Below, in pieces: positions 1 through 50,013 of a stretch of DNA of 64,000 nt. Origin of the DNA: a virus (Duplodnaviria; Heunggongvirae; Uroviricota; Caudoviricetes); IMG/VR virus record IMGVR_UViG_3300033463_000034; one strand, 5' to 3'. The position numbers and the translations under genes are program-made. The notes below the pieces were generated by a model. It ran no database searches. It was not told the DNA's origin and saw nothing but the letters and a program-made list of their open reading frames with translations. Within the stretch, counting starts at the first letter, position 1; each line of letters begins with the position of its first letter.

Positions 1-193
1 AGTAAATCATGCAGAAGTTCGAGAAATTGGTGGATATACAGAAGAAGATTTTAAAAGAGAATTTAAATTAGGAAGATTTGTTGATGGAAAAAGAGAAACT
101 TTAGCAGATTGTACTAATATAAAATGTCCTTTCAATCAAAATGGTAAATGTTGGAATAGCAATAAAGATAATGATTGCGGGCATAGATTATAA
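1..193 (+). CDS. C-terminal fragment of a hypothetical protein (Cys-rich tail CPFNQNGKCW..DCGH), 5' partial
   Basis: Open frame from the window edge in frame 2, TAA at 191-193. Confidence 0.4.
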   Translation, partial: VNHAEVREIGGYTEEDFKREFKLGRFVDGKRETLADCTNIKCPFNQNGKCWNSNKDNDCGHRL

Positions 194-210
194 GATAGGA
201 GTTGATTAAA

Positions 211-663
211 ATGAGTAAAATGTATTTAATGTGTGGATGCCCAGGAGTAGGAAAATCATATTATATTAAAACACATTTAAAAGAAGGCGAAAAGATAATT
301 TCAAGAGATGAAATTCGTTTTAGTATGCTTAAAGATGAAGATGAATATTTTTCAAAAGAAAAAGAAGTTTATAATGAATTTCTTAGAAGAATAAATGCGG
401 AAATAGCAGCTGGATCGGACTTTTATGTCGATCAAACATCTCTTAATACCGGGGCCCGCGCAAAATTATTAAATAAATTAAATAAAAAACCTGATAAATT
501 AATTGCAATTTATATTAATAAACCACTAAATATTATATTAAATCAAAATGCTCAAAGAACAGGACGCGCTTTTGTCCCTGAAGATGCAGTAATTAATATG
601 TTTAATTCAATAGAAAAACCTACAAAAAAAGAAGGTTTTGATGAAATATGGGAGATTAAATAA
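211..663 (+). CDS. P-loop polynucleotide kinase, similar to the T4 Pnk kinase domain
   Basis: RBS AGGAG 9 nt upstream of ATG 211. Walker A GCPGVGKS. ISRDEIRFSM and VDQTSLN match T4 Pnk INRDDYRQSIM and SDTNLN. Confidence 0.7.
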   Translation: MSKMYLMCGCPGVGKSYYIKTHLKEGEKIISRDEIRFSMLKDEDEYFSKEKEVYNEFLRRINAEIAAGSDFYVDQTSLNTGARAKLLNKLNKKPDKLIAIYINKPLNIILNQNAQRTGRAFVPEDAVINMFNSIEKPTKKEGFDEIWEIK

Positions 664-664
664 T

Positions 665-826
665 ATGTGGTTTTTTGAAATAAAATATGGAAATAATTGT
701 GCGCTTGGTGGACATTTTTATTCAAGAGAAGAAATGTTTGATTGGTTTGAATGTCATTTAAAATATTATACTTTTATTGATAAATTTTATGATTTACATA
801 TATGGTATAAAAAGGAGGTAGATTAA
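665..826 (+). CDS. small hypothetical protein
   Basis: ATG overlaps the kinase stop. Only 53 aa and no recognisable motif. Confidence 0.3.
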   Translation: MWFFEIKYGNNCALGGHFYSREEMFDWFECHLKYYTFIDKFYDLHIWYKKEVD

Positions 827-827
827 T

Positions 828-1517
828 ATGAAAGAATTAGTTAAATATTTTATAGAAAATGGAATATACCCTGATGAAGAATTTAAAAAAAGTGAACAAG
901 AAGCAATTAAAAAATTAAGTATTCCAATGAAAAATAATTTTTATGATTATTATAAAAAAAGAAAAATTTGGTTTACCTCAGATTTACATTTTGGTCATAA
1001 TAAAGAATTTTTATGGGGTCCAAGAGGTTTTGAATCTAGTCAAGAACATGATGAGGCGGTTATCCGCAATTGGAATAGTGTAGTAGATTATGATGATGAT
1101 GTATATGTTCTTGGAGATTTAATGCTTGGTGATAATGAATATGGACTTAATTGTATTAAAAGATTATCAGGACATATTCACATTATTCTTGGTAATCATG
1201 ATACAGAAACAAGAGCTGTATTATATTTACATTGTCCTAATGTTGAAACAATAGATTATGCAAGAGAAGAAAAATTTGAAAAAAATTATTTCTTTTTATG
1301 CCATTATCCTGTAATTACTGCAAATTATGATGATCAAAAAGCATGGGCTAAACATTTAATTAATTTACATGGACATACACATTCAGACAAAAGATTTTAT
1401 AATAATAATCCATATATGTATAATGTATCATTAGATGCACATTATAATTATCCTGTAGAATTAAACGAAATTATTGATGATATTAAGATGTTTAAAGAAC
1501 AACTTGATAAACAATAA
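828..1517 (+). CDS. calcineurin-like metallophosphoesterase
   Basis: RBS AAAGGAGG upstream. Motifs SDLHFGH, GDL and GNHD typical of metallophosphatases. Confidence 0.7.
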   Translation: MKELVKYFIENGIYPDEEFKKSEQEAIKKLSIPMKNNFYDYYKKRKIWFTSDLHFGHNKEFLWGPRGFESSQEHDEAVIRNWNSVVDYDDDVYVLGDLMLGDNEYGLNCIKRLSGHIHIILGNHDTETRAVLYLHCPNVETIDYAREEKFEKNYFFLCHYPVITANYDDQKAWAKHLINLHGHTHSDKRFYNNNPYMYNVSLDAHYNYPVELNEIIDDIKMFKEQLDKQ

Positions 1518-1556
1518 TTTTTTTTCTATAATAAAAATAAGATAGGAGAAAAGAAA

Positions 1557-1769
1557 ATGTTTAAAATTTTTAAAACTTTAATTTTAATTATTTGAATTAT
1601 TGATATATTAGATATTAATTTTTTAATTAATAATATACAAGTTGCAGAATTTCTTGATAAAACTGTACCTTTAAATTTTTGATTTTGATTAATATTATGA
1701 ATTTTTATACCAAGTTCAAATTATATAGATTTAAATAAAAGAATAGGAGAAATAAAATGAAAAAAATAA
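1557..1769 (+). CDS. small hydrophobic protein, only open if TGA=Trp (4 in-frame TGA)
   Basis: RBS AGGAGAAAAG upstream. Hydrophobic, Trp-rich translation MFKIFKTLILIIWIIDIL... Confidence 0.25.
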
Positions 1770-2203
1770 AAACTTTAGATACTTATTTTGATGAAAATGG
1801 AATCTCTTATGCAACTATTATGACTGAATTAGGTGCTTTTAATGGAACTTGTAAATTACATGATGAAGATAAAGATATAGTTTCAGAATTTCAAGGTTGT
1901 AGATGGGCGGAAATGCGTGCAGGAATCAAATATTTACAAGAAAAAGTTAAATTATTAAAAATAAAAGTTGATACATTAGAAAATTTAATTAATACTTTAT
2001 CATTAGTTAAAGGATATGAAAAAGACTCTGTAGAAGCAAGATATTTAAGAAAACAATATTTTATTAATAAAAATGAATATCAAATAAAAAAGAAAAATAT
2101 TCAAAAAATAAAAGAAAATTTATATAATTCAATGAAATATTATAGAAAAGATAAAGAAGACTTTTTAAATAAAATACAAAATAAAAAAGAGTCAGTTGAA
2201 TAA
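1757..2203 (+). CDS. hypothetical coiled-coil protein
   Basis: RBS TAGGAGAAAT upstream, 148 aa, heptad-like K/E-rich sequence. Confidence 0.5.
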   Translation: MKKIKTLDTYFDENGISYATIMTELGAFNGTCKLHDEDKDIVSEFQGCRWAEMRAGIKYLQEKVKLLKIKVDTLENLINTLSLVKGYEKDSVEARYLRKQYFINKNEYQIKKKNIQKIKENLYNSMKYYRKDKEDFLNKIQNKKESVE

Positions 2204-2237
2204 TAATTGGCTCTTTTATTCTTAGGAGATGATAAAT

Positions 2238-2786
2238 ATGAAAAAACCATTGATAAGACTTTATACAGATGGAGCATGTAGTGGAAATCCTGGAATAGGA
2301 GCATGAAGTTGTATTAGATATGATGGAGAAACTAATACTATATATGATGCTTATACTGGCGGAGAAGAAACTTATATGGATGGACATTTGATTCAAAAAG
2401 TTGAAACAACTAATAATCGTATGGAAATAAAAGGATTACTTCAAGCTCTTGAATTAGCGGTAACTAAATATAAAAATTGTGATGTGGTTATTTATTGTGA
2501 TAGTTCATATGTAGTAAATATTTTTAATGAATGGATTCACAATTGGGCGCGCAATAATTGGATTAATAGTTCTAAAGAGCAAGTTAAAAATTTAGATTTA
2601 ATATTAAAATTATATGAATATGCTAAAAAAGAATTCCCAAATTATGGAGTATATAAAATAGCAGGTCATAATAATGAATTAGGAAATGAATTAGCTGACG
2701 CTTACGCAGTTGCAGAACGAAGCGGAAATGCTACAAAATTAGCTAAAATTTTAAAAGAAAATAATATTACTCTCTCTATAGAGTAA
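2238..2786 (+). CDS. rnhA: ribonuclease H (RNase HI family)
   Basis: YTDGACSGNPGIGAW(TGA)S, then DSSYVVN and GHNNELGNELADAYA. One in-frame TGA at about 2303. Confidence 0.8.
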
Positions 2787-2790
2787 TTTT

Positions 2791-2819
2791 TTGATTTTAA
2801 AGGAAAATTTTATTATAAT
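2791..2819 (+). promoter_or_regulatory. sigma-A-type promoter TTGATT-17-TATAAT
   Basis: Exact hexamers with a 17-nt spacer upstream of the topoisomerase operon. Confidence 0.55.
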
Positions 2820-2851
2820 TAATATAGAAGATTTTATGAAAGGAGAAAATT

Positions 2852-4756
2852 ATGGCTGATAATAAATTATATACAAAAGATTCAATTGAGTCATTATCTC
2901 CATTAGAGTTTACTCGTTTAAAACCGGGTGTATATGCTGGTGATACTACATATTCAACTCAATTACTTGTAGAAATAATTTCTAATGCTGTTGATGAATT
3001 TAGATTAGGTCATGGTAATGAAATAGATATTGATATTAATAAAGATATTATATCTGTAAAAGATTATGGTCAAGGTTTTTTAGTAAATGAAAAAAGAGAA
3101 GATGGTAAAACCGTTCTAGAAGCAGCTTTCAGTGTTCTTAATACTTCTGGCAAATATCGTGAAGATGGAACTTATGAAGGAACTTCATTAGGTAGTTTTG
3201 GTATCGGATCAAAAATCACTACTTTTTTATCTCACTGGTTAGAAGTTCAAACTTGGAGAGATAATAAATCTGAATTTATTAGATTTGAAGAAGGTGTATT
3301 TAAAGATAGAGTTGTAAGAGAGGATCCATTAATCCCATCTGGAACTCTTGTAAGATGGCAACCTAGTGAACAATTTTTTACTCATACAACAGTAGAAATT
3401 AATAAAATAAAAGAATTATTTAATACAATAACTTGTTTATGTCCTGGGTTAAAAATGACTTTAACTATTGATGGAGAACAAACTATTTATTATTCAGAAA
3501 ATGGTATTAATGATTTAGTTGATGAAGCTGTTAAAAATAAAGAAATTATTGTTAATAGATTTAATATGAAATATGAAGAAGGAAAAGAAAAATTAGATAT
3601 GGTATTAACTTATACATCTAATTATTCACTTACTCTTGTTCCTTATGTTAATACAGGTTTAACAGAGAAGGGTCCTCATATCACTCAAGTTAAAACTATT
3701 ATAACAAGAGAATTTAATAAATTTTTTAAAGATAAAAAATGGTTAAAAGATAAAGAAGAAAATTTAACTGGAGATGATATACAAGAGGGTATGTATATAG
3801 TATTTAATATGACAGCTCCTAATGTTGCATATGATGCTCAAGTTAAATCAACAGTAACTAAATTAGATATGAGTAATTTTAGTGCGGCAATTGCTGAACA
3901 ATTACAATATTGGCTAATTAATAATGAAAAAGAAATAAAAGTAATCTTTGATAAAGCTGCAGCCGCACGTAAAGCAAGAGAAGCAGCTAAATCTGCACGA
4001 GAAAGAGTTAGAGAAAACAATAAGAAAAAAGAAAAAGCTCTTAAATTTGATAGTAAATTAGCAGATTGTTATTCAAAAGATAGAAGTAAATGTGAAATAT
4101 ATATCACAGAGGGTGATTCAGCTTCAGGAAATTTAAAATCAGCTAGAAATAATGAATTCCAAGCAGTAATGCCTGTTCGTGGTAAAATATTAAACACACA
4201 AAAAGCAAGTTTAGATAAGATACAAAAGAATGCAGAAATTATGACAATGATAGATGCATTTGGATTATATATTGATACTAAAACTATGCAAGTGACTTAT
4301 GATAAAAATAGTCTTCGATATGGTAAAATTATAATTGAATCAGATGCCGATGTAGATGGCGCTCATATTAAGAATTTATTCTATACATTTATATGGAACT
4401 TCTGTCCTCAACTAATTGAAGATGGTTATATTTATGCTGGTGTTCCACCATTATATAAAGTAACAATAGGAAAAGAATATAAATATATTAAAAATGATGA
4501 AGAATTAGAAGAATTTAAAAAAACAGTTGGCGATAAAAAAATAACTGTTAATCGTATGAAAGGTCTTGGTGAAATGTCGGTTGATGAAACTGAAGAAACA
4601 CTAACTGATCCTAATAACAGAATTATTAAACAAATAACAGTTGAAGATATGGCTGCCGCAGATAAACTATTTAATGATTTAATGGGAACTGCTATTGTTG
4701 TTAGAAAAGATTTTATAAAAGAACATAGTAAGGAGGCTACATACAATGCAGAATAA
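2852..4756 (+). CDS. type II topoisomerase large subunit (GyrB-like ATPase plus Toprim, as in T4 gp39)
   Basis: HATPase motifs NAVDE and GLGSFGIGSK. Toprim motifs EIYITEGDSASG, PVRGKILN and IESDADVDGAHI. Confidence 0.85.
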   Translation: MADNKLYTKDSIESLSPLEFTRLKPGVYAGDTTYSTQLLVEIISNAVDEFRLGHGNEIDIDINKDIISVKDYGQGFLVNEKREDGKTVLEAAFSVLNTSGKYREDGTYEGTSLGSFGIGSKITTFLSHWLEVQTWRDNKSEFIRFEEGVFKDRVVREDPLIPSGTLVRWQPSEQFFTHTTVEINKIKELFNTITCLCPGLKMTLTIDGEQTIYYSENGINDLVDEAVKNKEIIVNRFNMKYEEGKEKLDMVLTYTSNYSLTLVPYVNTGLTEKGPHITQVKTIITREFNKFFKDKKWLKDKEENLTGDDIQEGMYIVFNMTAPNVAYDAQVKSTVTKLDMSNFSAAIAEQLQYWLINNEKEIKVIFDKAAAARKAREAAKSARERVRENNKKKEKALKFDSKLADCYSKDRSKCEIYITEGDSASGNLKSARNNEFQAVMPVRGKILNTQKASLDKIQKNAEIMTMIDAFGLYIDTKTMQVTYDKNSLRYGKIIIESDADVDGAHIKNLFYTFIWNFCPQLIEDGYIYAGVPPLYKVTIGKEYKYIKNDEELEEFKKTVGDKKITVNRMKGLGEMSVDETEETLTDPNNRIIKQITVEDMAAADKLFNDLMGTAIVVRKDFIKEHSKEATYNAE

Positions 4757-7067: not shown

Positions 7068-7084
7068 CAACATTTTTTAGTTAT

Positions 7085-7134: not shown

Positions 7135-7163
7135 TTGACAATAATAAAAAATTATTATATAAT
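7135..7163 (+). promoter_or_regulatory. consensus promoter TTGACA-17-TATAAT
   Basis: TTGACA at 7135-7140 and TATAAT at 7158-7163, both perfect. Confidence 0.65.
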
Positions 7164-7194
7164 ATATATAATAAATAAAGAAGGAGAGATACAT

Positions 7195-8310
7195 ATGAAT
7201 CCAGATAAATTAGAAGAATATAAAATGCAAGAATTAGTAGATAAATTAAATTATTATACAAAAAAATATGATGAAGGTAAACCTGAAATATCTGATTTTG
7301 AATGGGATTCTATGTATTTTCAACTACAAGATTGGGAAAATAGAACTGGAATATATCTTTCAGATAGTCCTACTCAAAATATTAATTATCAAGTAGTTAA
7401 TAAACTTAATAAAGTAGAACACAATCACCCTATGTTATCTCTTGATAAAACAAAAGATATAACAGTAGCAGATTCATTTTACAATAGTCATAAGTGTATT
7501 GTAATGGCTAAAATGGATGGACTAACTTGTTCACTTCGTTATTTAGATGGTAAACTTGTATCTGCGGAAACTCGCGGAAATGGAATAATAGGTGAAGATA
7601 TACTTCATAATGCTTTACAAGTAAAAAATATTCCTAATAGAATTGATTATTATGAAGAATTAATTGTAGATGGAGAAATTATTTGTACTTATAATGATTT
7701 TAAAGCATTTGAAAATGAATATAAAAATCCTAGAAATTTTGCTTCAGGAAGTATTAGATTATTAGATAGTCAAGAAAGCGCCACTAGAAATCTTACTTTT
7801 GTTGCATGGGATGTTGTAAAAGGATTAGATTTAGAAAATCTATCTGATAAATTAAAATGGTTAGGAGATTTAAATTTTACTGTTGTTCCAAAAGGAAATA
7901 ATTTTTATACATTTCCTGTTCAAATAGAACATATTCAAAATGAATGTAATGCTTTAGGCTATCCAATTGATGGAATTGTAATTAAATATGATAATTGTAA
8001 AGAGTATGAAATTGCAGGTAAAACTGATCATCATTTTAAAGGTGGATTAGCATATAAATTTTATGATGAAGAATATGAAACTACTCTTCTAGATATAGAA
8101 TGGAGTATGGGTAGAACTGGAGTTCTTTCTCCTATTGGAGTTTTTGAGCCTATTGAAATAGATGGTACTACAATTACTAGAGCAAGTTTATCTAATATAT
8201 CAATTATGCATCAAACATTAGGGGAAAAACCTTTTAAAGGACAGAAGATTTGGGTATCAAAACGAAATATGATAATTCCAAAAATTGAAAGAGCGGAAAA
8301 GGAGGAATAA
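7195..8310 (+). CDS. ligA: NAD-dependent DNA ligase, N-terminal half (Ia, adenylation and OB domains)
   Basis: RBS AAGGAGAG upstream. KxDG motif AKMDGLTC. The OB fold ends at IIPKIERAEKEE followed by a stop. Confidence 0.8.
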   Translation: MNPDKLEEYKMQELVDKLNYYTKKYDEGKPEISDFEWDSMYFQLQDWENRTGIYLSDSPTQNINYQVVNKLNKVEHNHPMLSLDKTKDITVADSFYNSHKCIVMAKMDGLTCSLRYLDGKLVSAETRGNGIIGEDILHNALQVKNIPNRIDYYEELIVDGEIICTYNDFKAFENEYKNPRNFASGSIRLLDSQESATRNLTFVAWDVVKGLDLENLSDKLKWLGDLNFTVVPKGNNFYTFPVQIEHIQNECNALGYPIDGIVIKYDNCKEYEIAGKTDHHFKGGLAYKFYDEEYETTLLDIEWSMGRTGVLSPIGVFEPIEIDGTTITRASLSNISIMHQTLGEKPFKGQKIWVSKRNMIIPKIERAEKEE

Positions 8311-8314
8311 TATT

Positions 8315-8782
8315 ATGAATTTAAATATAGAAAAAAGAGAATATGATGAAAATGGCATATTAAAAAATAAACAATGTAATATTTGTTTTAGAATGTTACC
8401 TATTGAACAATATTATTCTAACAAAGCTCAATATGATGGACATAGTAACACATGTAAAGAATGTGAAAATGCTTCTTTATCTGTTAGATTAAAAAATTAC
8501 AAAAGAAATGCTAAAAATAGAAATCTTAATTTTAATTTAACAAAAGAAGAATTTGATAAAATAACTTCCCAACCATGTTATTATTGTGGAGATTTGGGTG
8601 CAATATCTCCTTCTGGATTTAGATATAATGGAATAGATAGAAAAGATTCATCGCAAGGATATAACTTAGATAATATAGTTCCTTGTTGCAAGATTTGTAA
8701 TTTAATGAAATTAGATATTCCAGAAAAAGATTTTTTATATCATATTCAAAAAATATATGAATTTCAGTTATGGGGGGATTAA
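8315..8782 (+). CDS. HNH homing-type endonuclease inserted between the ligase halves
   Basis: RBS AAGGAGG 10 nt upstream. HNH signature CYYCGD...NGIDRKDSSQGYNLDNIVPCCKICN. Confidence 0.75.
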   Translation: MNLNIEKREYDENGILKNKQCNICFRMLPIEQYYSNKAQYDGHSNTCKECENASLSVRLKNYKRNAKNRNLNFNLTKEEFDKITSQPCYYCGDLGAISPSGFRYNGIDRKDSSQGYNLDNIVPCCKICNLMKLDIPEKDFLYHIQKIYEFQLWGD

Positions 8783-8783
8783 A

Positions 8784-9584
8784 ATGAAACAATATTTTGA
8801 AATTCCTGAAATCTGTCCAATATGTGGCGGCAATACTGAAATTAGAAAAGATAATGATAGTGAGATGTTGTATTGTATAAATCCTCACTGCGAAGGAAAA
8901 TTAATAAATCACCTAGACCATTTTTGTGGTAAAAATGGGTTAGATATAAAGGGGCTCTCAACGGCAACTCTCGAGAAACTTATAGACTGGGGTTGGGTTT
9001 CTAATTATATTGATATATATAAATTAGAAAACTACTCAAACGAATGGAAAAACAAAGCTGGTTTTGGAGAAAAGTCAGTAGAGAGGATCTTGAGCGCCCT
9101 TGAACTAAGTAAAAATACTACATTAAATAAAGTTATTGCGGCCGCAGGTATACCTTTAATAGGTCCTGGAGTAGCAAAAATGTTAAGTGAGATTTATCAT
9201 ACTTGGATAGAGTTTCGTAATGAAAAAGATTTTGAATATATAGATGGAATCGGTCCAGAAATGAATAATTCATTATTAAATTTTAATTATACTGAAATTG
9301 AACAAGTTATTCCTTATTTAAATATAGAAAATGATAAAATAGAAAAGAAAAATAAATTAGAAAATTTAACTTTTTGTATTACTGGTAAAGTACATACAGT
9401 AAAAAATAGAGATGAATTAAAAGCAATAATAGAAAATAATGGTGGAAAAGTTGTTGGTTCAATGTCAAGCAAAGTTAATTATTTAATTAATAATGATAAT
9501 ACTTCAACTAGTGCAAAAAATATTGCCGCAAAACAAGCAGGAATTCCAATTATTACAGAGGAAGAATTGCAATTAATGATTTAA
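8784..9584 (+). CDS. ligA: NAD-dependent DNA ligase, C-terminal half (Zn finger, HhH and BRCT)
   Basis: CPICGG...C..C Zn finger at the N-terminus, HhH region GIPLIGPGVAK, BRCT-like end. Own weak RBS GGGGGGA. Confidence 0.75.
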   Translation: MKQYFEIPEICPICGGNTEIRKDNDSEMLYCINPHCEGKLINHLDHFCGKNGLDIKGLSTATLEKLIDWGWVSNYIDIYKLENYSNEWKNKAGFGEKSVERILSALELSKNTTLNKVIAAAGIPLIGPGVAKMLSEIYHTWIEFRNEKDFEYIDGIGPEMNNSLLNFNYTEIEQVIPYLNIENDKIEKKNKLENLTFCITGKVHTVKNRDELKAIIENNGGKVVGSMSSKVNYLINNDNTSTSAKNIAAKQAGIPIITEEELQLMI

Positions 9585-16598: not shown

Positions 16599-18404
16599 AT
16601 GAAATATAAACTTATAAAAGAAATAGATCCAAATTTAAGTCCTATTCAAGTTATTTTATTTAATAGAGGAATTAAATTAAGTGAAATTCATCATTATCTT
16701 AATACAACAGATGAAGATATAAATAATGCGGAAATGTTCGGTAAAGACAAATTAGACCTCGCTACTTTAGAATTAGCCAAGGCTATTCAAAATAATAAAG
16801 ACACTTTAGTATTAGTAGACTGCGACTGTGATGGATATACTGCCGCCGCAATACTTATAAATTATTTATATGATTTATTTCCTTCATTTGTTGAAAATCA
16901 TTTAAAATATTATTTACATGAAGATAAAACACATGGATTATCAGATTGTATGGACTATATAGAAGATAATAATTTTGAATTAATTATTATACCTGATGCC
17001 GCAAGCAATGATTATGAATATCATAAAAAATTAAAAGAAGAAGGTAAAACTATTATTATATTAGATCACCATGAAGCACCAAAAGTATCTGAAGATGCTA
17101 TTATTATAAATAATCAATTAAGTGATTATCCAAATAAACAATTATCAGGTGCTGGTGTTGTATGACAATTTTGTAGACATTTTGATAAAATACGTGGCGG
17201 ATTTAATGCAGATCAATATATAGATTTAGCAGCGTTAGGAAATTGCGGAGATATGATGAGTCTTAAATCAATTGAGACTAAGCATATTATAACCAAAGGT
17301 TTCCGTAATGAAAATATTAAAAATCCATTTATATATGGAATGGCTGAAAAAAATAGTTATTCTTTAGGAAATAAAATTACTCCAATTGGAGCAGCATTTT
17401 ATATAGTTCCTTTTATAAATAGTATGGTTAGAAGTGGAACTCTTGAGGAAAAAGAAATATTATTTAAATCAATGTTAAAATCTGAAGCTTTCAAAGAAAT
17501 TCCTTCTAATAAAAGAGGTCATGCTCTAGGAGAAACAGAAAAATTAATAGATCAAGCATTAAGAACAGCAACAAATGTAAAGAGTAGACAAACAAGAGAA
17601 CAAGAGAAAGGTATGACTCTTGTAGAAGATATGATAATAAAAAATAATATGATGGAACATAAAGTATTATTATTTTTACTTGAACCTGGACAAATAGATC
17701 CAAATATTGCAGGTTTAATAGCAAATAAAATTATGGCTAAATATCAAAGACCTACATTAATGTTAATAAAATGTGAAGTTCTTAATCCTAATATTGTATT
17801 AACTTCTAATCCACCAAAACCCTATTATGAAATATATTATCGCGGAAGTGCTCGTGGATATTCTAAATCTGGTATAGATAATTTTAAGGATATATGTCAA
17901 GAAACTGGGTTGGTAGAATATGCAGAAGGACATCAAAATGCATTTGGTATTAGTATAAAAAGAGAATATATAGATAAATTTATAGAACTAACAGATATAA
18001 CACTTAAAGATTTACAAAGTGAACCTTTATATTATGTTGATTATATATTTAAAGGTGTAGATGTAACTCCAAATGTAATATTAGAAATAGCGGGTTTAAA
18101 TGATATATGGGGCCAAGATATGGATGAAAGTTTAATTTGTGTAGAAAATTTAAAAGTAACAAAAGAAAACTTAACTCTTATGTCTCCAGATAAAAAACCT
18201 ACATTAAAAATAATATTACCAAATAAATTATGTTTTATTAAGTTTGGAAGTTCACAAGAAGAATATGAAAAATTATTAAGTGATGGATATATAGAAATTA
18301 ATATTATAGGTAAATGTAATGCTAATGAATGAAATGGAAATGTGACTCCTCAAATATTAATTGAGGATTATGAAATAATAGGACAAAGTAAATATAATTT
18401 TTAG
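16599..18404 (+). CDS. DHH-family phosphoesterase (RecJ-like exonuclease); 2 in-frame TGA
   Basis: DHH motifs VLVDCDCDGYTAAAI and ILDHH. Protein continuity runs across the TGA at 17163 and 18330. Confidence 0.7.
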
Positions 18405-20854: not shown

Positions 20855-23800
20855 ATGAATAAAAGATTTGAAGTTCATTCACATACATATTATAGTAATT
20901 TGCGTTTATTGGATTGTATTAATCGTCCTAAAGATTTAATAAATCGTGCGATTGAATTAGGATTATCTGGAATAGCCATTACAGATCATGAATGTATTAG
21001 TTCGCATCCAGAAATAAACTTTTATCAATCTGAAATAGAACAAGAACATCCTGATTTTAAAATAGCACTAGGGAATGAAATATATTTAACTGATGATAGA
21101 GAAAAAGGACAAAGATATTATCACTTTATTTTAATAGCAAAAAATAAAGAAGGTCATAGAGCATTAAGAGAATTATCTTCAAGAGCATGGATGAATAGTT
21201 ATTGGGATAGAGGTCTTGAAAGAGTACCAACATTAAAAAGTGATTTAGAAGAAATATTAAAAAAATATCCTAATAGTTTAATTGGAACAACAGCATGCTT
21301 AGGTGGAGAATTATCAGTTAATACATTAAATTTAATTAGAAGTGAAACAACAGGAGATGAAAATGGTGCGGTAACTGCACATAATAATATAGTAAATTTT
21401 TTATTATGGTGTAAAGAAGTATTTGGTAAAGACAATTTTTATATAGAATGTGCGCCAGGTGCTAGCCGCGATCAAGTGTTAGTTAATAAAAGATTTCCTG
21501 CTATTGCAAAAGCATTTGGATTAAAAATGGTAATAGGTTCAGATGCTCATTATCTTAAAAAAGAAGATAGATATGTTCATAAAGCATATCTTAATTCTAA
21601 AGGTGGAGAGCGTGAAGTAGATGAATTTTATGAATATGCATATCTACAAGATAATGAAGAAATAAAAAATAATTTATATGCATCTCAATTTAGTAATGAA
21701 TTTATAGAAGAAATGTTTAATAATAGTTATGAAATATATGAGAAAATAGAAAAATTTAGTTTGGCTCATGCACAAACAATTCCAAAAGTAGAAGTAGAAG
21801 ATTATCCAAAAATTAAAGTTGGAGAACTAGAAAAACAAGAATTTCCTATTTTATCTAGTATGTTAGAATCAGAAGATAAAATAGAAAGATATTGGGTTAA
21901 TCAATGCTTTAATAAATTAAAAGAAATTAATTTATATAATAATGAATATTGTCATAGATTAGAAGAAGAAGCTGATATAAAAAGAACAATTAGTGAAAAA
22001 TTAGGAACTAATATGTTTGCATATCCAGTAACATTACAACATTATGTTGATTTATTCTGGGAATGTGGTAGTATAGTTGGAGCAGGAAGAGGTTCAAGTT
22101 GTTCTGGTTTAAATCATTATCTTTTAGGTATAACTCAATTAGATCCTATTAAATGGAGTCTTCCTTTCTGGAGATATTTAAACAAAGAGCGTGTTGAATT
22201 AGGAGATATAGATTTAGATTTATGTCCAAGTAAACGTCCTAAAATTTTAAATGAAATAAAAAAAGAAAGAGGACAAAAATTTAATAAAGATATAGATGAA
22301 TTGAGTAGAAAAAATTTAGGTTGTACTTTAATAGCAACATTTGGAACAGAAGGAACAAGATCTACAATTTTAACTGCTTGCCGCGGATATAGAAGTGAAG
22401 ATTTTCCAGATGGTATTGATGTTGATACAGCTCAATATTTATCTTCATTAATTCCTAGTGAGCGTGGATTTTTATGACCACTATCTGATGTTATTAATGG
22501 AAATGAAGATAAAGAAAGAAAACCTATAAAAACTTTTATAAATGAAGTTAATCAATTTCCTGGATTATTAGATATAATGCTAGGAATAGAAGGTTTAGTA
22601 AATAAAAGAAGTAGTCATGCTTCAGGAGTTATATTATTTGATGAAGATCCATATGAGTTCGGTTCATTTATGAGAACTCCAAAAGGAGAAGTTATAACAG
22701 CATATGATCTTCATATGTGTGAAGCATGTGGTATGACAAAATATGACTTTTTAGTAACAGAAGTTCAAGATAAATTGGCGGAAGCAATTAGAATGTTACA
22801 AGATTATGGAGAAATTGAAAGTGATTTAACATTAAGAGAAGTATATGATAAATATTTTCATCCAAATGTTTTACCTATTGAAGAGGATAAATATTGGAAA
22901 GTTATTCAAGAAAATAATATATTAAATTTATTTCAATTTGATTCAGAAGTTGGTAGTCAAGCAGCTAAAAAAATTAAGCCAACAAATATGATGGAATTAG
23001 CAGATGCAAATGGTTTAATGAGATTAATGACTGCGGAAAAAGGTCAAGAATCTCCAATGGATAAATATATTAGATTTAAGAATAATATTAATTTATGGTA
23101 TAAAGAAATGGATGAATATGGTTTAACAAAAGAAGAACAAAAAGTATTAGAGCCATATTTTAAAAGTTCACATGGTGTTCCACCATCACAAGAACAATTA
23201 ATGAGAATGTTAATGGATGAAAATATTTGTAATTTTAGCTTAAAAGATGCAAACGCCGCGAGAAAAATTGTAGGTAAAAAACAAATGAGTAAGATCCCTG
23301 GATTAAGACAACAAGTATTAGATCAAGCTAAAAGTCCATGTTTAGGTAATTATGTTTGGAAATGTGGTATCGGTCCACAAATGGGTTATTCATTTAGTAT
23401 TATTCACGCTCTTGCATATAGTTTTATAGGTTTTCAAACTGCCTATATAGCAACAAAGTGGAATCCTATATATTGGAATACAGCATGTTTAATAGTAAAT
23501 AGCGGAAGTCTTGAAGAAGAAAGTGATTTTGAAGAAGATGAAGATGGATTTGTTGTAGAGAAAAAAGAAAAGACAACAGATTATAGTAAAATAGCAAAAG
23601 CATTAAGTGATATTATAAATAAAGGAATAAAAGTTAGTTTAGTAGATATAAATAAATCAGATTATAGTTTTGAACCAGATGTTGATAATAATGAAATATT
23701 ATTTGGAATGAAAGCATTAAGTAATGTAGGAGGTCCAATAATAGAACAAATTAAAGCTGGTCGTCCATATGCAGGAATTGCAGATTTTATGGTTAAATGT

Positions 23801-24808
23801 CCATTAAATAAAAGTGCAATGATAAGTTTAATTAAAGCGGGGGCTTTTGATAAAATAGATAATAAAAATGCGAAAGAAGCAAATGTTGAACCTAGATTAT
23901 GGGTTATGACATATTATTTATCTAAAGTGTGTGATGCAAAAAAAAGATTAACTTTACAAAATTTTAATGGTTTATTACAACATAATTTAATTCCTGAAGA
24001 ATTAGATTTACAAAAAAGAGTATTTAATTTTAATAAATATTTAAAAGCAAATCAAAAAGTAGGAAAATATTATGTATTTAATCAACCTTGTGAAGATTTT
24101 TATAATAAATATTTTGATTTAGATCAGTTAGAAGTAATAAATGGTATTACATGTATTCTTCAAACAAGATGGGATAAAATATATCAAGATATAATGGGAA
24201 CAGCTAGAGATTATTTACAAGTACATCAAGATGAAATGTTAAAGAAATTTAATACAATGTTATTTAAAGAATGTTGGGATAAATATGCACAAGGAAATAT
24301 TTCTGCGTGGGAAATGGAATCTTTATGTTTTTATTATCATGAACATGAATTAGCTCATATTAATAATTTAAAATATGGATTAACAAATTTCTTTGATTTA
24401 TCTCCATCTCCAGAAATTGATACAATGTTTAAAAGAAATGGTAAAGAAATTCCTATATTTAAAACTTTTAAAATAGTTGGAACAGTTATTAATAAAAATG
24501 ATAATAAAAATAGTATAACTTTATTAACAACAAATGGTATTGTTATTGTTAAATTTACAAAAGAATATTTTGCAATGTTTAATAGACAATTAAGTGAAAT
24601 GGGAGAAGATGGAACTAAACATGTTATTGAAAAAGGTTGGTTTACAAGAGGAACTAAAGTAATGATAACAGGTTTTAGAAGAGATGATACTTTTGTAGCA
24701 AAAACTTATACACGAACAGCAACTCATCAATTATATAAAATAGAAAAAGTATTTGAAAATGGAGATATGGAATTAACTCATGAAAGAGGAAATAATAATG
24801 AAGAATAG
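20855..24808 (+). CDS. DNA polymerase III alpha-family replicative polymerase (PHP domain plus pol core plus OB), about 1317 aa; in-frame TGA at 22478
   Basis: RBS AGAGGAGGA upstream. PHP motif HSHTYYS...ITDHE. The two track ORFs are in the same frame and joined by TGA. Confidence 0.75.
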
Positions 24809-24864: not shown

Positions 24865-25131
24865 ATGAAAAAAATAATAGAGCATGGATATAAATATCAT
24901 ATGGAAACTAAATGTCCTTCATGTGGTTGTAAATTTTCGTATGATTGGGAAGATGTATTAAAAACTGATTTATATCATTATGGATACAATGGTTATTATA
25001 CTTACCCAAATTATAAAATTACTTGCCCAGAATGTGGAGCTGAATTTCAAATATTAAATTGGACTTTTAATTATCCTAGTGATACAATTACCTGTATTCA
25101 TACTTCAGGAGATACAAAAAATGAAAATTAA
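24865..25131 (+). CDS. zinc-ribbon protein
   Basis: CPSCGC...CPECG pairs. Confidence 0.45.
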   Translation: MKKIIEHGYKYHMETKCPSCGCKFSYDWEDVLKTDLYHYGYNGYYTYPNYKITCPECGAEFQILNWTFNYPSDTITCIHTSGDTKNEN

Positions 25132-25678
25132 AATTATAGCATTATTTGGGGCAAGTGGTAGCGGAAAAGATACATTATCAAAAATTTTAGCAAAGCAAGA
25201 TAATATAAACGAAATAATTAGTAATACAACAAGACCTAAAAGAGATTATGAACAAGATGGAATAGATTATCATTTTTTAACCGAAGCAGAATTTACTAAA
25301 AAAATATTAAAAGGGGATATGTTAGAAGCAACTAGTTTCCGCAACTGATTCTATGGAACTTCTATTGATTCATTAAAAGAAGATAAAATAAATGTTGGAG
25401 TATTTAATATTCAAGGAATTGAATGTCTTTTAAAAGATGAAAGATTAGAAGTGTATCCAATTTTAATTGCTTGTGAAGATAAACTTCGTTTACAAAGATG
25501 TTTAGATAGAGAAGCAAATCCAGATTGTGAAGAGATTTGTCGCAGATTCTTAGCAGATTTAAAAGATTTTGAAGATATACCTTTTGAATATAATATACAT
25601 TATAATGGAGCAAAAGTAGAGCCATCATGGATTATTCAAGATCTTATCGACTTAAATATACTCAACAAGATAGATTAA
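25121..25678 (+). CDS. gmk: guanylate kinase-like nucleoside monophosphate kinase (1 in-frame TGA)
   Basis: P-loop GASGSGKDT and signature TTRPKRDYEQDGIDYHFLTEAEF. Continues across the TGA at 25346. Confidence 0.65.
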
Positions 25679-25757
25679 TTTATATAAGCTAAAAATAAAA
25701 TAATATAGAGGGTAATTTTAACCACTCGAAATAATTTATATACTGAGGAGGTTGACT

Positions 25758-28010
25758 ATGAAAGTCATAAAACGTGACGGTCGTATTGTAGAATTCGATC
25801 CTACTAAAATCCATAACGCAATTTTAGCAGCTTTTCAAAGTGTTGATGGAGAAATTACTGATTATGCAAAAGATAAAGCTGAAAATATAGCAAGTTATAT
25901 TGAAGGATATTATTTAGATGTTGATGAAACACCTGGGATAGAAGATATCCAAGATTTAGTTGAAAAAGGATTAATGGCAACTAAAAGAAAAGATGTAGCT
26001 AAAGCTTATATATTATATAGAGAAGAAAGAAATAAAAAAAGACAATTAAAAACTTCTTTAATGCAAAATGTAAAAGAAAAAATTGAAGCTTCAGATGTAC
26101 AAAATCAAAATGCTAATGTTGATGAATATTCATTTGGTGGAAGAATGGGTGAAGCCCGCAGTGAAGTAATGAAAGATTATGCACTTAATTATATTGTATC
26201 TGATATGGCTAAACAAAATCATTTAAATAATGAAGTATATATCCATGATTTAGATTCATATGCTGTTGGTATGCATAACTGTTTAACCGTACCTTTTGAT
26301 CATTTATTATCACATGGTTTTAATACTAGACAAACAGATGTTCGTCCAGCTCGTTCAATTAATACTGCATTTCAACTAGTAGCAGTTATATTCCAATTAC
26401 AATCACTTCAACAATTTGGTGGAGTTAGTGCAAGTCATTTAGATTGGACTATGGTACCATATGTTCGTATGAGTTTTTATAAACATTTTCAAGATGGTTT
26501 AAAATATATTTCACCAGATCCATATTATAGTGGAGATGATTTTAATAGTGATATGTCTATTGAAGATGAGCAATATAAGAAATATCCAAAAGCATATAAA
26601 TATGCAATGGATATGACTGAAAAAGAATTAAATCAAGCTGTTCAAGGTATGTACCATAACTTAAATACATTACAATCTAGAAGCGGAAATCAATTACCTT
26701 TTACTTCAATTAATTATGGTACTTGTACTTTACCAGAAGGTAGAATGGTTACAAAAGCATTATTAGAAGGTAGTATTGAAGGTGTTGGTAAAGTTAGAAA
26801 AACTCCAATATTCCCATGTAGTATATTCCAATGTATGAATGGTGTTAATCGTAAACATGGAGATCCAAACTATGATTTATTTAAATTAGCACTTAAATCA
26901 ACAGCTCAAAGATTATATCCAAACTATGTTAATGTAGATTGGTCTGTAAATGCGGGTTATGATAAAAACGACCCTAAAACATATGTTTCTACAATGGGAT
27001 GTCGTACATATAATGGAGCAGATATAAATGCTGAACCTGGAACTAATCCACAAACTAAAGATGGCCGCGGAAATATTTGCCCTGTTACAGTTATTATGCC
27101 TACTTTAGCAATGGAAGCTAAAAAATTAGCTGATGAAGAGTATGAAGCTACAGGTCAAGCTGATATTATTGATGCTTTTATGTCTTTGTTAGATAAAAAA
27201 ATTCATGAAGCAAAAGATATGCTTATTGAAAGATATAATTATATTATCAGCCAAAGTCCTAATGGAGCAAAATTTATGTATGAAAATGGTTGTATATTAG
27301 GTTATGATGGTAAAACAGTAGAAAGTGCTATGAAACATGGAACATTAGCTCTTGGTCAAATAGGTCTTGCAGAAACACTTCAAATATTAATTGATAAAGA
27401 TCACACAACACCTGAAGGTATGGAATTAGCAAAAAAAATAGAACAATTATTTAAAGATAGATGTGCTGAATTTAAAAAAGAATATAAATTAAATATTGGT
27501 GTATATTATACTCCAGCTGAAAATTTATGTTATACAGCTATGAAAAAATTTAAAAACAAATATGGAATAATTCCTAATGTAAGTGATAGAGATTACTTCA
27601 CTAATTCAATTCATGTTCCAGTTTGAAAAGAAATGAGTCCTTTTGATAAAATAGATATTGAAAGTCAATTAACTGGATATAGTAATGCAGGATGTATTAC
27701 TTATGTTGAATTAGATGGCGGAGTTAAAAATAATTTAGATGCATTAGAAACAATTGTAAATTATGCTATTGATAAAGATATACCTTATTTTGCAATTAAT
27801 GTTCCAAATGATACCTGTTTAGATTGTGGATATACAGATGAATTTAATGATAATTGTCCAATGTGTGGAGGTACACATATTCAACAATTGCGTAGAGTAA
27901 CAGGATATTTAACTGGAGATTATAAAACTGCTTTCAATAAAGGAAAACAACAAGAAACTGAACAAAGAATAAAACATCAAAAATTTAATGGAGATTGTTC
28001 TCATGATTAG
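25758..28010 (+). CDS. nrdD: anaerobic ribonucleoside-triphosphate reductase (class III); in-frame TGA at 27627
   Basis: RBS GAGGAGG upstream. ATP cone at the N-terminus. C-terminal glycyl-radical motif RRVTGYL with a Cys cluster CLDCG...CPMCG. Confidence 0.8.
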
Positions 28011-32856: not shown

Positions 32857-33810
32857 ATGAATACTTACCCTATTGATATCGTTGTAACTTTTTTAGATAA
32901 TTCGGATAAAAACTGACAAAAAGAATTTTACAAATATAAAAAAGAAGAAATAAAAAACAGAATTACTCAAGCAGAAAATTCTCAAGCATTTGGAAAAGAT
33001 AGATTTCGTGAATGAGATGTGTTCAAATATTGGTTTAGAGGAGTTGAAAAGAATTGTTCATGAGTAAACAAGATATTTTTAATAGTTCAAAGTGAAACAC
33101 AAATTCCTAAATGATTAAATAAAAATCATCCAAAATTAAGAATTGTTTATCATGAAGAATATATTCCTAAAGAATTATTACCTACTTTTAATGATAGACC
33201 TATTGAATTTTATACTTGTTTTATTAAAGATTTATCTAAAAATTATATTAGAAGTAACGATGATTGTTATTTTTTAAATCCAATTCCTGAAGATATGTTT
33301 TTTAAAAATGATAGACCAGTATTACCAGATAATCAAAGACCATTTGAATTTTTTGAGGCTAAAGGTTCAGGTGCAACATTTTGAGGAGCATTAAATAATA
33401 ATTTAGAATTAGAAAAAGAATATTTAAATGGAAAAAATTATACTTATGGTATAGCTCATTTACAAATGGCATGTGATAAAAATTTTGAATTAAAAATAAT
33501 TAATAATCATAAAGAAAAATTTTTATCTGCTTTATCTTATAGTCGTTTTAGAAGTGAAAAACATTATACAATTTATTTATTTGATGATTTAGAAAGAATA
33601 TGTGAAAACGCAATTTTAGATAAAAACATTTTTAATACAAGTTGTTATTGTTATTTAAATAAAAATTTAAATTTTGAAGATATAAAAAATAAATTATGTG
33701 TTTGCTTAAATGATACAGATAAAGCAAATTCAGATTATTCTTTAATTAAAAAAAATATGCAAAAATTTTTTGAAGATAAATTTCCTAATAAATCTTCTTT
33801 TGAAATTTAA
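32857..33810 (+). CDS. Stealth-family hexose-1-phosphoryl transferase (capsule/teichoic-acid phosphotransferase-like); 5 in-frame TGA
   Basis: Stealth CR1-like PIDIVVTFLDNSDKNW(TGA)QKEF and a CR2-like segment. Confidence 0.55.
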
Positions 33811-33823
33811 TAAAGGAGGCTAT

Positions 33824-36799: not shown

Positions 36800-36838
36800 A
36801 ATAGCACAGATATAAAAATCTGTGCTTTTTTATTTTTA
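36800..36838. terminator. bidirectional terminator between convergent modules
   Basis: Stem agcacagat/atctgtgct flanked by T-runs on both strands. The minus-strand gene stops at 36836. Confidence 0.6.
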
Positions 36839-39688: not shown

Positions 39689-39691
39689 ATG

Positions 39692-49995: not shown

Positions 49996-50013
49996 ATTAT
50001 AACTTCCTTTCTA

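What the first reader, a model, noticed from the sequence alone, without database searches (positions are those of the whole stretch)
1..1517. T4 Pnk-like polynucleotide kinase next to a separate metallophosphoesterase: putative RNA or tRNA end-healing pair
The kinase shares P-loop, RD..R and DxT/SLN motifs with the T4 Pnk kinase domain but lacks the HAD phosphatase. The adjacent gene is a calcineurin-like phosphoesterase, as in bacterial Pnkp. Such pairs heal tRNA breaks made by host anticodon nucleases, so this is a candidate counter-defence module. The truncated upstream ORF (1-193) could be the ligase partner.
Basis: partly seen in the sequence, partly recalled or inferred. Interest (0 to 1): 0.55.

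Follow-up and report, generated by a model that had tools for sequence, protein, structure and literature searches.

The report
Phage RNA end-healing gene cassette
A phage that reads the stop codon TGA as tryptophan carries a conserved three-gene cassette (zinc-ribbon protein, T4-Pnk-like kinase, metallophosphoesterase) that most likely repairs cut RNA ends; related phages have an RNA ligase beside it, while this one has a Ro60-like RNA-binding protein there instead.

Summary
Window 211-663 encodes a 150-aa P-loop kinase whose only significant relatives are polynucleotide kinases and the tRNA kinase PSTK. Window 828-1517 encodes a metallophosphoesterase (MPE) with all metal-binding motifs intact.

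- The truncated upstream ORF (2-193) is not a ligase. It is the end of a 107-aa zinc-ribbon protein, which sits directly upstream of the kinase in 20 of 23 related loci.
- No RNA ligase was found in the 64-kb window or in about 12 kb upstream in the closest relative.

Comparison with related phages still supports an RNA-repair role. The kinase and MPE are adjacent in 23 of 23 non-redundant related loci. The slot just upstream holds a DraRnl-type or T4 Rnl1-type RNA ligase in many relatives, and a Ro60-like protein (DUF2828) in this phage. Distant relatives fuse kinase, phosphoesterase and Rnl1 ligase into one protein. tRNA gene arrays lie next to the cassette.

Verdict: a probable RNA or tRNA end-healing cassette, a new variant of a known kind. 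The enzyme activities and the source of the ligase are untested.

The parts
2..193 (+). C-terminal 63 codons of a 107-aa Cys-rich zinc-ribbon protein. Its N-terminus (CxxC...CxxC) lies upstream of the window. It is the conserved first gene of the cassette.
   Evidence: The full gene is L001 5390-5713. L003 is 100% identical to window 1-3447. It lies directly upstream of the kinase in 20 of 23 related loci, often overlapping the kinase start by 8 nt. PHROG 1257 'ribosome associated inhibitor A; zinc finger domain', 1.5e-12. No Pfam or NCBIfam hit.
211..663 (+). 150-aa stand-alone polynucleotide-kinase-like P-loop kinase (T4 Pnk / bacterial Pnkp / PSTK clade). Predicted to act as a 5'-OH kinase.
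   Evidence: G9, G14, K15, R32, D33, R36, D74, Q75, T76, N113 and R116 are invariant in 22 family members.
638..826 (+). Small 61-62-aa ORF between the kinase and the MPE. Its start overlaps the kinase 3' end, and its stop abuts the MPE start codon (TAAtATG).
   Evidence: Called as a gene on L001-L005. Homologues occur only in a subset of relatives (L034, L014/L015). No family hit. Its role is unknown and it may not be part of the core.
828..1517 (+). 229-aa binuclear metallophosphoesterase of the aq_1665 clade, with a lineage-specific 42-aa helical N-terminal extension. Predicted to act on RNA 3' ends (2',3'-cyclic phosphate or 3'-phosphate).
1557..1769 (+). 70-aa hydrophobic ORF that is open only if TGA is read as Trp. 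It follows the MPE.
   Evidence: Homologues occupy the same position in L013, L019, L032-L034, L036 and L047. Function unknown, and membership of the cassette is uncertain.
1757..2203 (+). Conserved 148-aa ORF of unknown function that follows the MPE and precedes the RNase H gene in most related loci.
   Evidence: phmmer hits on 51 ORFs across about 40 related loci, the listed ones all downstream of the MPE. No significant Pfam, NCBIfam or PADLOC hit. Membership of the cassette is uncertain.

Best explanation
The window opens inside a conserved early-gene cassette: zinc-ribbon protein, Pnk-like kinase, aq_1665-type metallophosphoesterase. The cassette most likely heals broken RNA ends, probably tRNA cut by anticodon nucleases or other metal-independent RNases.

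Proposed steps:
1. A ribonuclease leaves a 2',3'-cyclic phosphate (or 3'-phosphate) end and a 5'-OH end.
2. The MPE converts the 3' end to 3'-OH. This is inferred from its intact binuclear metal site and its gene linkage only.
3. The kinase transfers the gamma-phosphate of ATP to the 5'-OH. This is inferred from homology and from conservation of the T4 Pnk catalytic residues.
4. An ATP-dependent RNA ligase seals the break. The ligase sits beside the cassette in many relatives. It was not found in this window, so it must be encoded elsewhere in this genome or be absent.

In this phage the slot occupied by the ligase in relatives holds a Ro60-like ring protein with a vWA domain. It probably binds or scaffolds the damaged or misfolded RNA. 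The zinc-ribbon protein is probably a nucleic-acid-binding or adaptor subunit.

The cassette heads the rightward early operon and is transcribed divergently from the arm that carries the phage's tRNA genes.

Shown here: the homologies, the conserved catalytic residues, the predicted folds and the synteny. Inferred: every enzymatic activity, the RNA substrate, and the counter-defence purpose.
For: Kinase:
- Its only significant solved relatives are PSTK, C. thermocellum Pnkp, T4 Pnk, mammalian PNKP and Pnkp1.
- hhalign to a T4-like Pnkp kinase domain gives 98.1% probability with the catalytic motifs aligned.
- The window has a separate guanylate-kinase-like gene at 25079-25678, so nucleotide phosphorylation already has a plausible dedicated enzyme.

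MPE: all metallophosphoesterase motifs are invariant, and the model is confident.

Linkage:
- The kinase is followed by the MPE in 23 of 23 non-redundant related loci, and preceded by the zinc-ribbon gene in 20 of 23.
- In several gene tables the zinc-ribbon and kinase ORFs overlap by 8 nt.

RNA ligase association:
- A DraRnl-type ligase (PF09414 + PF21189; TIGR02306) lies directly upstream of the cassette in L012, L014-L016, L020, L021, L032 and L034.
- Of 63 viral contigs anchored on that ligase, 35 carry the kinase, 33 the MPE and 25 all three genes within 3 kb downstream.
- In L022 the ligase is T4 Rnl1-type (PF09511), with a Band_7 gene nearby.
- L026 and L028 encode single proteins that fuse kinase, Metallophos and Rnl1 domains.
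- Bacillus phages Nate and pW2 have an Rnl1-type ligase directly upstream of the kinase homologue.
- Six ligase loci carry the aq_1665-type MPE without a detectable kinase: L057, L059, L060, L063, L092 and L093.
- Relatives with nothing upstream of the cassette still carry the DraRnl-type ligase 14-17 kb away on the same contig (L045/L019 and L046/L017).

Ro60-like neighbour:
- The top 12 Foldseek hits of the model of the upstream 502-aa DUF2828 + DUF7788 protein are all Ro60/Rsr, including a Thermus phage Ro60.
- It carries a vWA-type DxSxS motif (D299, S301, S303).
- PHROG 850 'RNA-binding protein', 6e-110.
- Many contigs show the full order Ro60-like, lambda-phosphatase-like MPE, ligase, zinc ribbon, kinase, MPE (L137, L139; L152, L194 and L196 with one element missing).

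tRNA genes: up to 19, including a UCA suppressor, lie in the divergent arm within 4-10 kb in relatives, and one tRNA-Ile lies in L001.

Literature: phage RNA repair systems combine ATP-grasp ligases, polynucleotide kinases, phosphoesterases (calcineurin-like in a minority) and ROT/TROVE proteins (PMC7824862).
Against: - No RNA ligase was detected in the 64-kb window by ligase HMMs or by Pfam on the ORFs scanned. None lies within 10 kb upstream of the Ro60-like gene in the closest relative. About half of the genome was not visible.
- The MPE clade has no characterised member, and it is not the lambda-phosphatase clade used by Pnkp.
- Relatives that carry the ligase often carry a second, lambda-phosphatase-like MPE, which could be the true 3'-end healing enzyme.
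- The cassette is embedded among DNA replication genes: RNase H, topoisomerase II and NAD-dependent DNA ligase.
- MPE homologues in cultured phages have mixed neighbourhoods, some of them DNA-related.
- No Y RNA was detected by Rfam in L001 or in five related loci.
- No biochemical data exist for any component.
Confidence: 0.6

Rival explanations
1. RNA surveillance or processing without ligation. Together with the Ro60-like ring protein, the kinase and MPE remodel RNA ends for quality control, decay or maturation. Examples would be marking 5'-OH fragments for 5'-phosphate-dependent nucleases, or removing 2',3'-cyclic phosphates that act as damage signals. No break is resealed.
For: - In this phage and its closest relatives the ligase slot is taken by a Ro60-like protein, and no ligase was found within reach.
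- The cellular Ro60 homologue Rsr works with Y RNA and the exonuclease PNPase in RNA degradation (abstracts of PMC4201824 and 10.1101/312249).
- Some relatives have the cassette with nothing upstream of it.
Against: - The same cassette is tightly linked to RNA ligases of two families in many relatives, and is fused to one in L026 and L028.
- Relatives with a bare cassette still have the ligase 14-17 kb away.
- Ro60-like and ligase genes co-occur on at least ten contigs.
Confidence: 0.17
2. DNA end-healing. The kinase and MPE convert 5'-OH and 3'-phosphate DNA nicks or breaks into ends that the phage NAD-dependent DNA ligase can seal during replication or repair.
For: - The cassette lies in one co-oriented block with RNase H, topoisomerase II and LigA in every relative examined.
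- T4 Pnkp and mammalian PNKP also act on DNA (established knowledge; PNKP hits).
- MPE homologues in Bacillus phage Phrodo and coliphage nieznany sit near recombination genes or a DNA ligase.
Against: - The variable neighbours are RNA-specific: DraRnl-type and Rnl1-type RNA ligases, a Ro60-like protein and Band_7.
- The domain fusions are with RNA ligase, not DNA ligase.
- The replication genes are simply the next genes of a long early operon.
Confidence: 0.12
3. The two enzymes act on something other than polynucleotide ends. The kinase could be a PSTK/KTI12-like enzyme acting on an aminoacyl-tRNA or on the suppressor tRNA. The MPE could be a nuclease or a phosphodiesterase for cyclic-nucleotide defence signals.
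For: - PSTK is nominally the best solved and NCBIfam hit (1e-12).
- The phage decodes TGA, and relatives carry an unusual 96-nt UCA tRNA that ARAGORN labels SeC.
- Calcineurin-like phosphodiesterases have been proposed as anti-signalling enzymes in jumbo phages (PMC7824862).
Against: - The PSTK score (48 bits) is far below the family cut-off of 290, and the PSTK C-terminal tRNA-binding domain is absent.
- Pnkp and T4 Pnk score almost as well as PSTK.
- TGA+TGG makes up 1.0-1.4% of codons in all gene classes, as expected for Trp rather than Ser or Sec.
- The UCA tRNA resembles the neighbouring tRNA-Trp, with the same AGGG 5' end and the same G before the CCA end.
- The kinase family also occurs in a TAG-recoded phage and in standard-code Bacillus phages.
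- There are no PADLOC hits.
Confidence: 0.06

Closest known systems
Phage T4 Pnkp with Rnl1 (tRNA repair after cleavage by the PrrC anticodon nuclease)
   Same: - The kinase domain is homologous, with the P-loop, RDxxR, xTxLN and lid arginine motifs aligned (hhalign 98.1%).
- The phage context is the same.
- Relatives place a T4 Rnl1-type ligase next to the kinase (L022, L026, L028, Bacillus phages).
   Different: - There is no HAD 3'-phosphatase domain. A separate binuclear metallophosphoesterase takes its place.
- A conserved zinc-ribbon partner is present.
- No ligase was found in this phage's window.
Bacterial Pnkp (Clostridium thermocellum Pnkp, partnered with Hen1)
   Same: It combines a Pnk-type kinase (profile E 7.5e-10) with a calcineurin-superfamily phosphoesterase for RNA end healing (PMC2190708 abstract).
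   Different: - Here the two activities are on separate polypeptides.
- There is no adenylyltransferase domain, and no Hen1 was seen.
- Lambda-phosphatase-like MPEs do occur as additional genes in relatives.
aq_1665 (PDB 1XM7) family of small metallophosphoesterases, equivalent to PHROG 547 phage 'phosphoesterase'
   Different: - The family has no assigned function.
- Here it is strictly linked to a Pnk-like kinase, and often to RNA ligases. That linkage offers a functional hypothesis for the family.
- This copy has a 42-aa N-terminal extension.
Ro60/Rsr with Y RNA, and the bacterial rsr-yrlA-rtcB-rtcA RNA repair operon
   Same: The upstream DUF2828 + DUF7788 protein has the Ro60 architecture of a ring domain plus a vWA domain (top 12 Foldseek hits). 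It is linked to RNA repair genes, as Rsr is in Salmonella (PMC7790460).
   Different: - There is no sequence-level similarity to Ro60.
- No Y RNA was detected.
- The linked enzymes are kinase, MPE and ATP-dependent ligase, rather than RtcB and RtcA.

Membership tests
T4-type Pnkp (bifunctional kinase plus HAD phosphatase) | N-terminal P-loop 5'-kinase domain with the catalytic Lys/Ser (P-loop), Asp and Arg (RDxxR) and lid Arg | tested here: met
   hhalign 98.1%, E 8.7e-14, with the motifs in register. K15, D33, R36 and R116 are invariant; S16 is conserved in at least 90% of members.
T4-type Pnkp (bifunctional kinase plus HAD phosphatase) | C-terminal HAD (DxDxT) 3'-phosphatase domain in the same polypeptide | tested here: not met
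   The protein is 150 aa and ends at the kinase-domain boundary. No HAD family hit.
Bacterial Pnkp (C. thermocellum type) | Kinase domain homologous to the Pnkp N-terminal domain | tested here: met
   PDB 4GP7/4JST at 7.5e-10. TIGR04075 at 2.7e-10, a domain-level match only.
Bacterial Pnkp (C. thermocellum type) | Lambda-phosphatase-type metallophosphoesterase domain | tested here: not met
Bacterial Pnkp (C. thermocellum type) | C-terminal ligase-like adenylyltransferase domain and a Hen1 partner | tested here: not met
   The proteins are separate and short. No ligase or methyltransferase family was found in the neighbourhood.
PSTK (O-phosphoseryl-tRNA(Sec) kinase) | Full-length match including the C-terminal tRNA-binding domain, and a score above the equivalog cut-off | tested here: not met
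   TIGR03574 scores 48 bits against a cut-off of 290.5. The match covers model positions 3-143 of 249 only.
aq_1665-type metallophosphoesterase (PHROG 547) | Fold and binuclear-site motifs DxH, GD, GNH(D/E), H and GHxH | tested here: met
Phage RNA repair system (healing plus sealing) | 5'-kinase and 3'-phosphoesterase genes that are linked | tested here: met
   Adjacent in the window and in 23 of 23 related loci.
Phage RNA repair system (healing plus sealing) | An RNA ligase (ATP-grasp type or RtcB) in the same genome or module | tested here: inconclusive
   None in the window or within about 12 kb upstream in the closest relative. Adjacent to the cassette in many relatives, and 14-17 kb away in others. 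The rest of this genome was not available.
Phage RNA repair system (healing plus sealing) | Enzymatic activity on broken RNA ends | not testable with these tools
   This needs biochemical assays.
Ro60/TROVE (upstream neighbour) | Ring-shaped TROVE domain plus a vWA domain with a metal-binding (DxSxS) motif | tested here: met
   Foldseek top 12 hits are all Ro60/Rsr over the full length, E 2e-6 to 1e-3, TM about 0.47, model pLDDT 76.6. D299, S301 and S303 are invariant.
Ro60/TROVE (upstream neighbour) | An associated Y RNA | tested here: inconclusive
   No Rfam Y-RNA hit in L001 or in five related loci. No de novo search for a structured RNA was made.

The most novel reading that the evidence does not exclude
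The cassette is a safeguard for recoded translation. These phages write Trp as TGA in most of their late genes, so they depend on their own tRNA set, including a UCA suppressor. The cassette sits next to that tRNA arm. Together with the Ro60-like protein it may protect or repair the phage's own tRNAs against host anticodon nucleases. If so, the aq_1665 metallophosphoesterase family, without a function since its structure was solved in 2004, would be an RNA 3'-end healing enzyme, and the zinc-ribbon protein would be a new targeting subunit.
Probability: 0.2. Interest if true: 0.7.

Novelty: new variant of a known kind. Interest (0 to 1): 0.47.

Why it matters
Phage RNA repair is the classic counter to tRNA-cleaving host defences, but only a few systems have been characterised.

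- This cassette is widespread in large, uncultured rumen and gut phages. The kinase search returned 387 protein clusters and the MPE search more than 2,300.
- It separates the healing activities onto small single-domain proteins.
- It links an uncharacterised phosphoesterase clade and an uncharacterised zinc-ribbon protein to RNA ligases.
- A Ro60-like protein and an RNA ligase can occupy the same slot in the cassette.

If the predicted activities are confirmed, the aq_1665 family (PHROG 547, found in more than 700 sequenced phages) and DUF2828 would gain a functional context. The work would also suggest that stop-codon-recoded phages invest in keeping their tRNAs intact.

Tried and rejected
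- **Upstream ORF as ligase:** rejected. It is a 107-aa zinc-ribbon protein.
- **RNA ligase in the window:** HMMs of the DraRnl-type and Rnl1-type ligases, and phmmer with phage ligases and a partial RtcB, found nothing. Pfam on most ORFs from 7 to 36.7 kb and on one minus-strand ORF found none. Most late-gene ORFs on the minus strand were not scanned with Pfam.
- **Walking upstream:** L001 reaches 3.8 kb and L199 reaches 10 kb upstream of the Ro60-like gene, with no ligase. The tools do not allow going further for this phage.
- **Window source:** the window's own contig is not in the viral collection; the best kinase match there is 74% identical. One exact-protein look-up failed because the window diverges from the recorded contigs after position 7077.
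- **Y RNA:** no Rfam hit.
- **NMP-kinase or other P-loop kinase assignment:** rejected.
- **5-hmdU DNA kinase:** only a weak partial Pfam hit (E 0.009), far below the cut-off.
- **Defence-system component:** no PADLOC hits.
- **PSTK/selenocysteine reading:** considered because of the PSTK top hit and a 'SeC' tRNA call. Rejected on codon frequencies and on the tRNA's similarity to tRNA-Trp.
- **Amino acid encoded by TGA, from alignments:** uninformative. The NrdD position is variable in homologues, and the codon-column comparison had too few sites.
- **Literature:** searches for DUF2828 found nothing relevant. The Burroughs and Aravind 2016 RNA-repair survey is not held in the library, so it is cited only through PMC7824862.
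Full report
**What is at 1-1517**

ORF listing and the raw sequence show three co-oriented genes on the + strand.
- The 3' end of an ORF at 2-193.
- A 150-aa ORF at 211-663, with AGGAG 9 nt upstream of the ATG.
- A 229-aa ORF at 828-1517, with AAGGAGG upstream of the ATG.

A 61-aa ORF (638-826) bridges the last two.

**The kinase**

- It matches Pfam AAA_33 (1.2e-13) and PHROG 505 'polynucleotide kinase' (1.8e-15).
- A profile built from 22 family members hits only the following in the PDB: PSTK (1e-12), the C. thermocellum Pnkp kinase domain (7.5e-10), T4 Pnk (1.3e-9), mammalian PNKP (3e-6) and Pnkp1 (4.5e-6). The next hit has E = 0.024.
- hhalign against the Pnkp of a T4-like phage gives 98.1% probability. 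It aligns GCPGVGKS, SRDEIR, DQTSLN and NAQRTGRAFVP with GCPGSGKS, NRDDYR, SDTNLN and NAKR-GTKAVP. The protein ends exactly where the T4 HAD domain would start.
- G9, G14, K15, R32, D33, R36, D74, Q75, T76, N113 and R116 are invariant in the family.

**The phosphoesterase**

- PHROG 547 at 2e-45. Pfam Metallophos_2 falls just below its cut-off.
- All five metallophosphoesterase motifs are invariant in 41 homologues.
- The AlphaFold model is confident (pLDDT 87.6).
- Everything else is at superfamily distance: LpxH 11.3, YfcE and MJ0936 10.4, lambda phosphatase 10.1, P. putida nuclease MPE 10.0, and the C. thermocellum Pnkp phosphatase 8.1.
- So 'calcineurin-like' is correct, but 'as in bacterial Pnkp' holds only at superfamily level.

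**What lies upstream**

An exact-protein look-up recovered contigs that extend beyond the window. L003 is 100% identical to window 1-3447, and L001 is 97.7% identical over the first 7 kb.

- The truncated ORF is the end of a 107-aa protein with an N-terminal CxxC...CxxC ribbon and a Cys/His-rich tail. It has no Pfam or NCBIfam family. It matches PHROG 1257 'ribosome associated inhibitor A; zinc finger domain' at 1.5e-12. It is not a ligase.
- Upstream of it is a 502-aa DUF2828 + DUF7788 protein. This is the first gene after a divergent intergenic region that contains a near-consensus promoter. Promoter-like matches in the region are not more frequent than chance.
- The model of that protein (pLDDT 76.6) has Ro60/Rsr structures as its top 12 Foldseek hits over the full length, including the Ro60 of Thermus phage phiLo.
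- It carries an invariant DxSxS motif, and PHROG 850 calls it 'RNA-binding protein'. Sequence searches against the PDB find nothing.

**Comparative context**

I anchored searches on the kinase, on the ligase of relatives and on the Ro60-like protein. I then scanned about 200 loci with local HMMs.

- Among 23 non-redundant loci with a strong kinase hit and enough flanking sequence, 23 have the aq_1665-type MPE within 2.5 kb downstream on the same strand. Twenty have the zinc-ribbon gene directly upstream, often overlapping the kinase start by 8 nt.
- The slot upstream of the zinc-ribbon gene varies between phages:
  - (A) The Ro60-like gene: window/L001-L003, L011, L033, L036, L199.
  - (B) A lambda-phosphatase-like PF00149 MPE, a 222-aa ORF and a DraRnl-type RNA ligase (PF09414 + PF21189; TIGR02306): L012, L014-L016, L032, L034.
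  - (C) Nothing: L017/L035, L018, L019. Two of these three contigs (those of L017 and L019) carry the same ligase 14-17 kb away in the divergent arm (L045, L046).
- L022 has sigma-70, Band_7, a T4 Rnl1-type ligase, then zinc ribbon, kinase and MPE.
- L026 and L028 encode 732-742-aa proteins that fuse kinase, Metallophos and Rnl1 domains.
- Many Ro60-anchored contigs show all or most of the order Ro60-like, lambda-phosphatase-like MPE, ligase, zinc ribbon, kinase, MPE.
- Of 63 ligase-anchored contigs, 35 have the kinase, 33 the MPE and 25 all three genes within 3 kb downstream. Six have the MPE without a detectable kinase.
- Cultured Bacillus phages place an Rnl1-type ligase directly before the kinase homologue.
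- The TAG-recoded gut phage Phass-1 keeps the kinase and MPE 1.3 kb apart.
- This is the modular arrangement described for phage RNA repair: ligase, kinase, phosphoesterase and ROT/TROVE or Band-7 scaffolds (PMC7824862).

**What is missing in this phage**

- No RNA ligase was found in the 64-kb window by ligase HMMs or by Pfam on the ORFs scanned.
- None lies within 10 kb upstream of the Ro60-like gene in the 98%-identical relative L199.
- The other half of the genome could not be reached. Ro60-like and ligase genes co-occur on at least ten viral contigs, so a ligase elsewhere in the genome is plausible but not shown.

**Mechanism**

The best-supported reading is an RNA end-healing cassette.
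1. The MPE removes 2',3'-cyclic or 3'-phosphates.
2. The kinase phosphorylates 5'-OH ends.
3. An ATP-dependent ligase seals the break. Such ligases need 3'-OH and 5'-phosphate ends.

The Ro60-like ring protein and the zinc-ribbon protein would act as RNA-binding or scaffolding partners.

Likely substrates are tRNAs. The divergent arm next to the cassette carries 5-19 tRNA genes in relatives, including a UCA suppressor, and one tRNA-Ile in L001.

All activities are inferred. Three rivals remain open:
- a ligation-free role in RNA surveillance;
- DNA end-healing that feeds the neighbouring NAD-dependent DNA ligase;
- a different substrate for the MPE.

The second, lambda-phosphatase-like MPE in ligase-bearing relatives leaves open which MPE performs 3'-end healing.

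**Genome background**

- The window is 26.8% G+C and reads TGA as a sense codon.
- DnaE and NrdD each contain one in-frame TGA, and many late genes are open only under genetic code 4.
- TGA+TGG is 1.0-1.4% of codons in all gene classes. TGA accounts for 22% of these in early genes and 68% in late genes, as expected for Trp.
- There are no close relatives among GenBank phages.
- The cassette genes themselves contain no in-frame TGA.

**Verdict**

The cassette is a new variant (split proteins, aq_1665-type MPE, zinc-ribbon partner, Ro60-like or ligase in the same slot) of the known phage RNA-repair theme.

Noticed in passing
whole window; for example minus strand 36836-39691, 46414-50010 and 61104-63998; plus strand 20855-24808 (DnaE) and 25752-28010 (NrdD): TGA is a sense codon, most likely Trp. 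Long late genes are open only under genetic code 4. DnaE, NrdD and a RecJ-like gene (16599-18404; two in-frame TGAs) are split by in-frame TGA under code 11. TGA+TGG is 1.0-1.4% of codons everywhere, but TGA makes up 22% of these in early genes and 68% in late genes.
   Followed up: partly
window 7135-9584: The NAD-dependent DNA ligase gene is split into two ORFs (7135-8310 and 8757-9584) by an insertion of about 480 nt that is absent from L001 and L002. The insertion carries a 165-aa HNH/endonuclease VII-like ORF at 8285-8782 (PHROG 1035, 2e-24), so it looks like a homing endonuclease insertion.
   Followed up: partly
L035 2613-2708 (minus strand) and L019 1659-1754 (minus strand): The UCA suppressor tRNA of related phages is 96 nt long. 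Its long variable arm looks like a second anticodon arm carrying CCA. The 5' end and the G before the CCA end resemble those of the neighbouring tRNA-Trp. ARAGORN labels it SeC.
   Followed up: partly
L033 251-522 (minus strand): Rfam OLE (ornate large extremophilic) RNA hit at 103 bits (E 8e-26) covering model positions 281-595 of 616. It lies in the tRNA arm of a related phage contig and overlaps a tRNA-Gly call. There is no Rfam hit in the window itself.
   Followed up: no
window 31287-32738: A 483-aa Band_7/SPFH-flotillin protein. In relative L022 a Band_7 gene sits within the RNA-repair neighbourhood.
   Followed up: no
L117 and L118 (IMG/VR contigs 3300033463_000977 and 3300028797_000126): A variant in which the Ro60-like and zinc-ribbon genes are followed directly by the homologue of the 148-aa ORF, with no kinase or MPE detected.
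   Followed up: no
window 2229-2786: The RNase H gene is 136 aa from its ATG under code 11. It extends to about 185 aa if an upstream in-frame TGA is read as Trp, which matches the 175-182-aa RNase H genes called in relatives.
   Followed up: partly
window 32857-36145 and 42677-43783: Several glycosyltransferase genes (Stealth CR2/CR4, GT2, GT1) lie between the early and late blocks, with many in-frame TGA codons.
   Followed up: no
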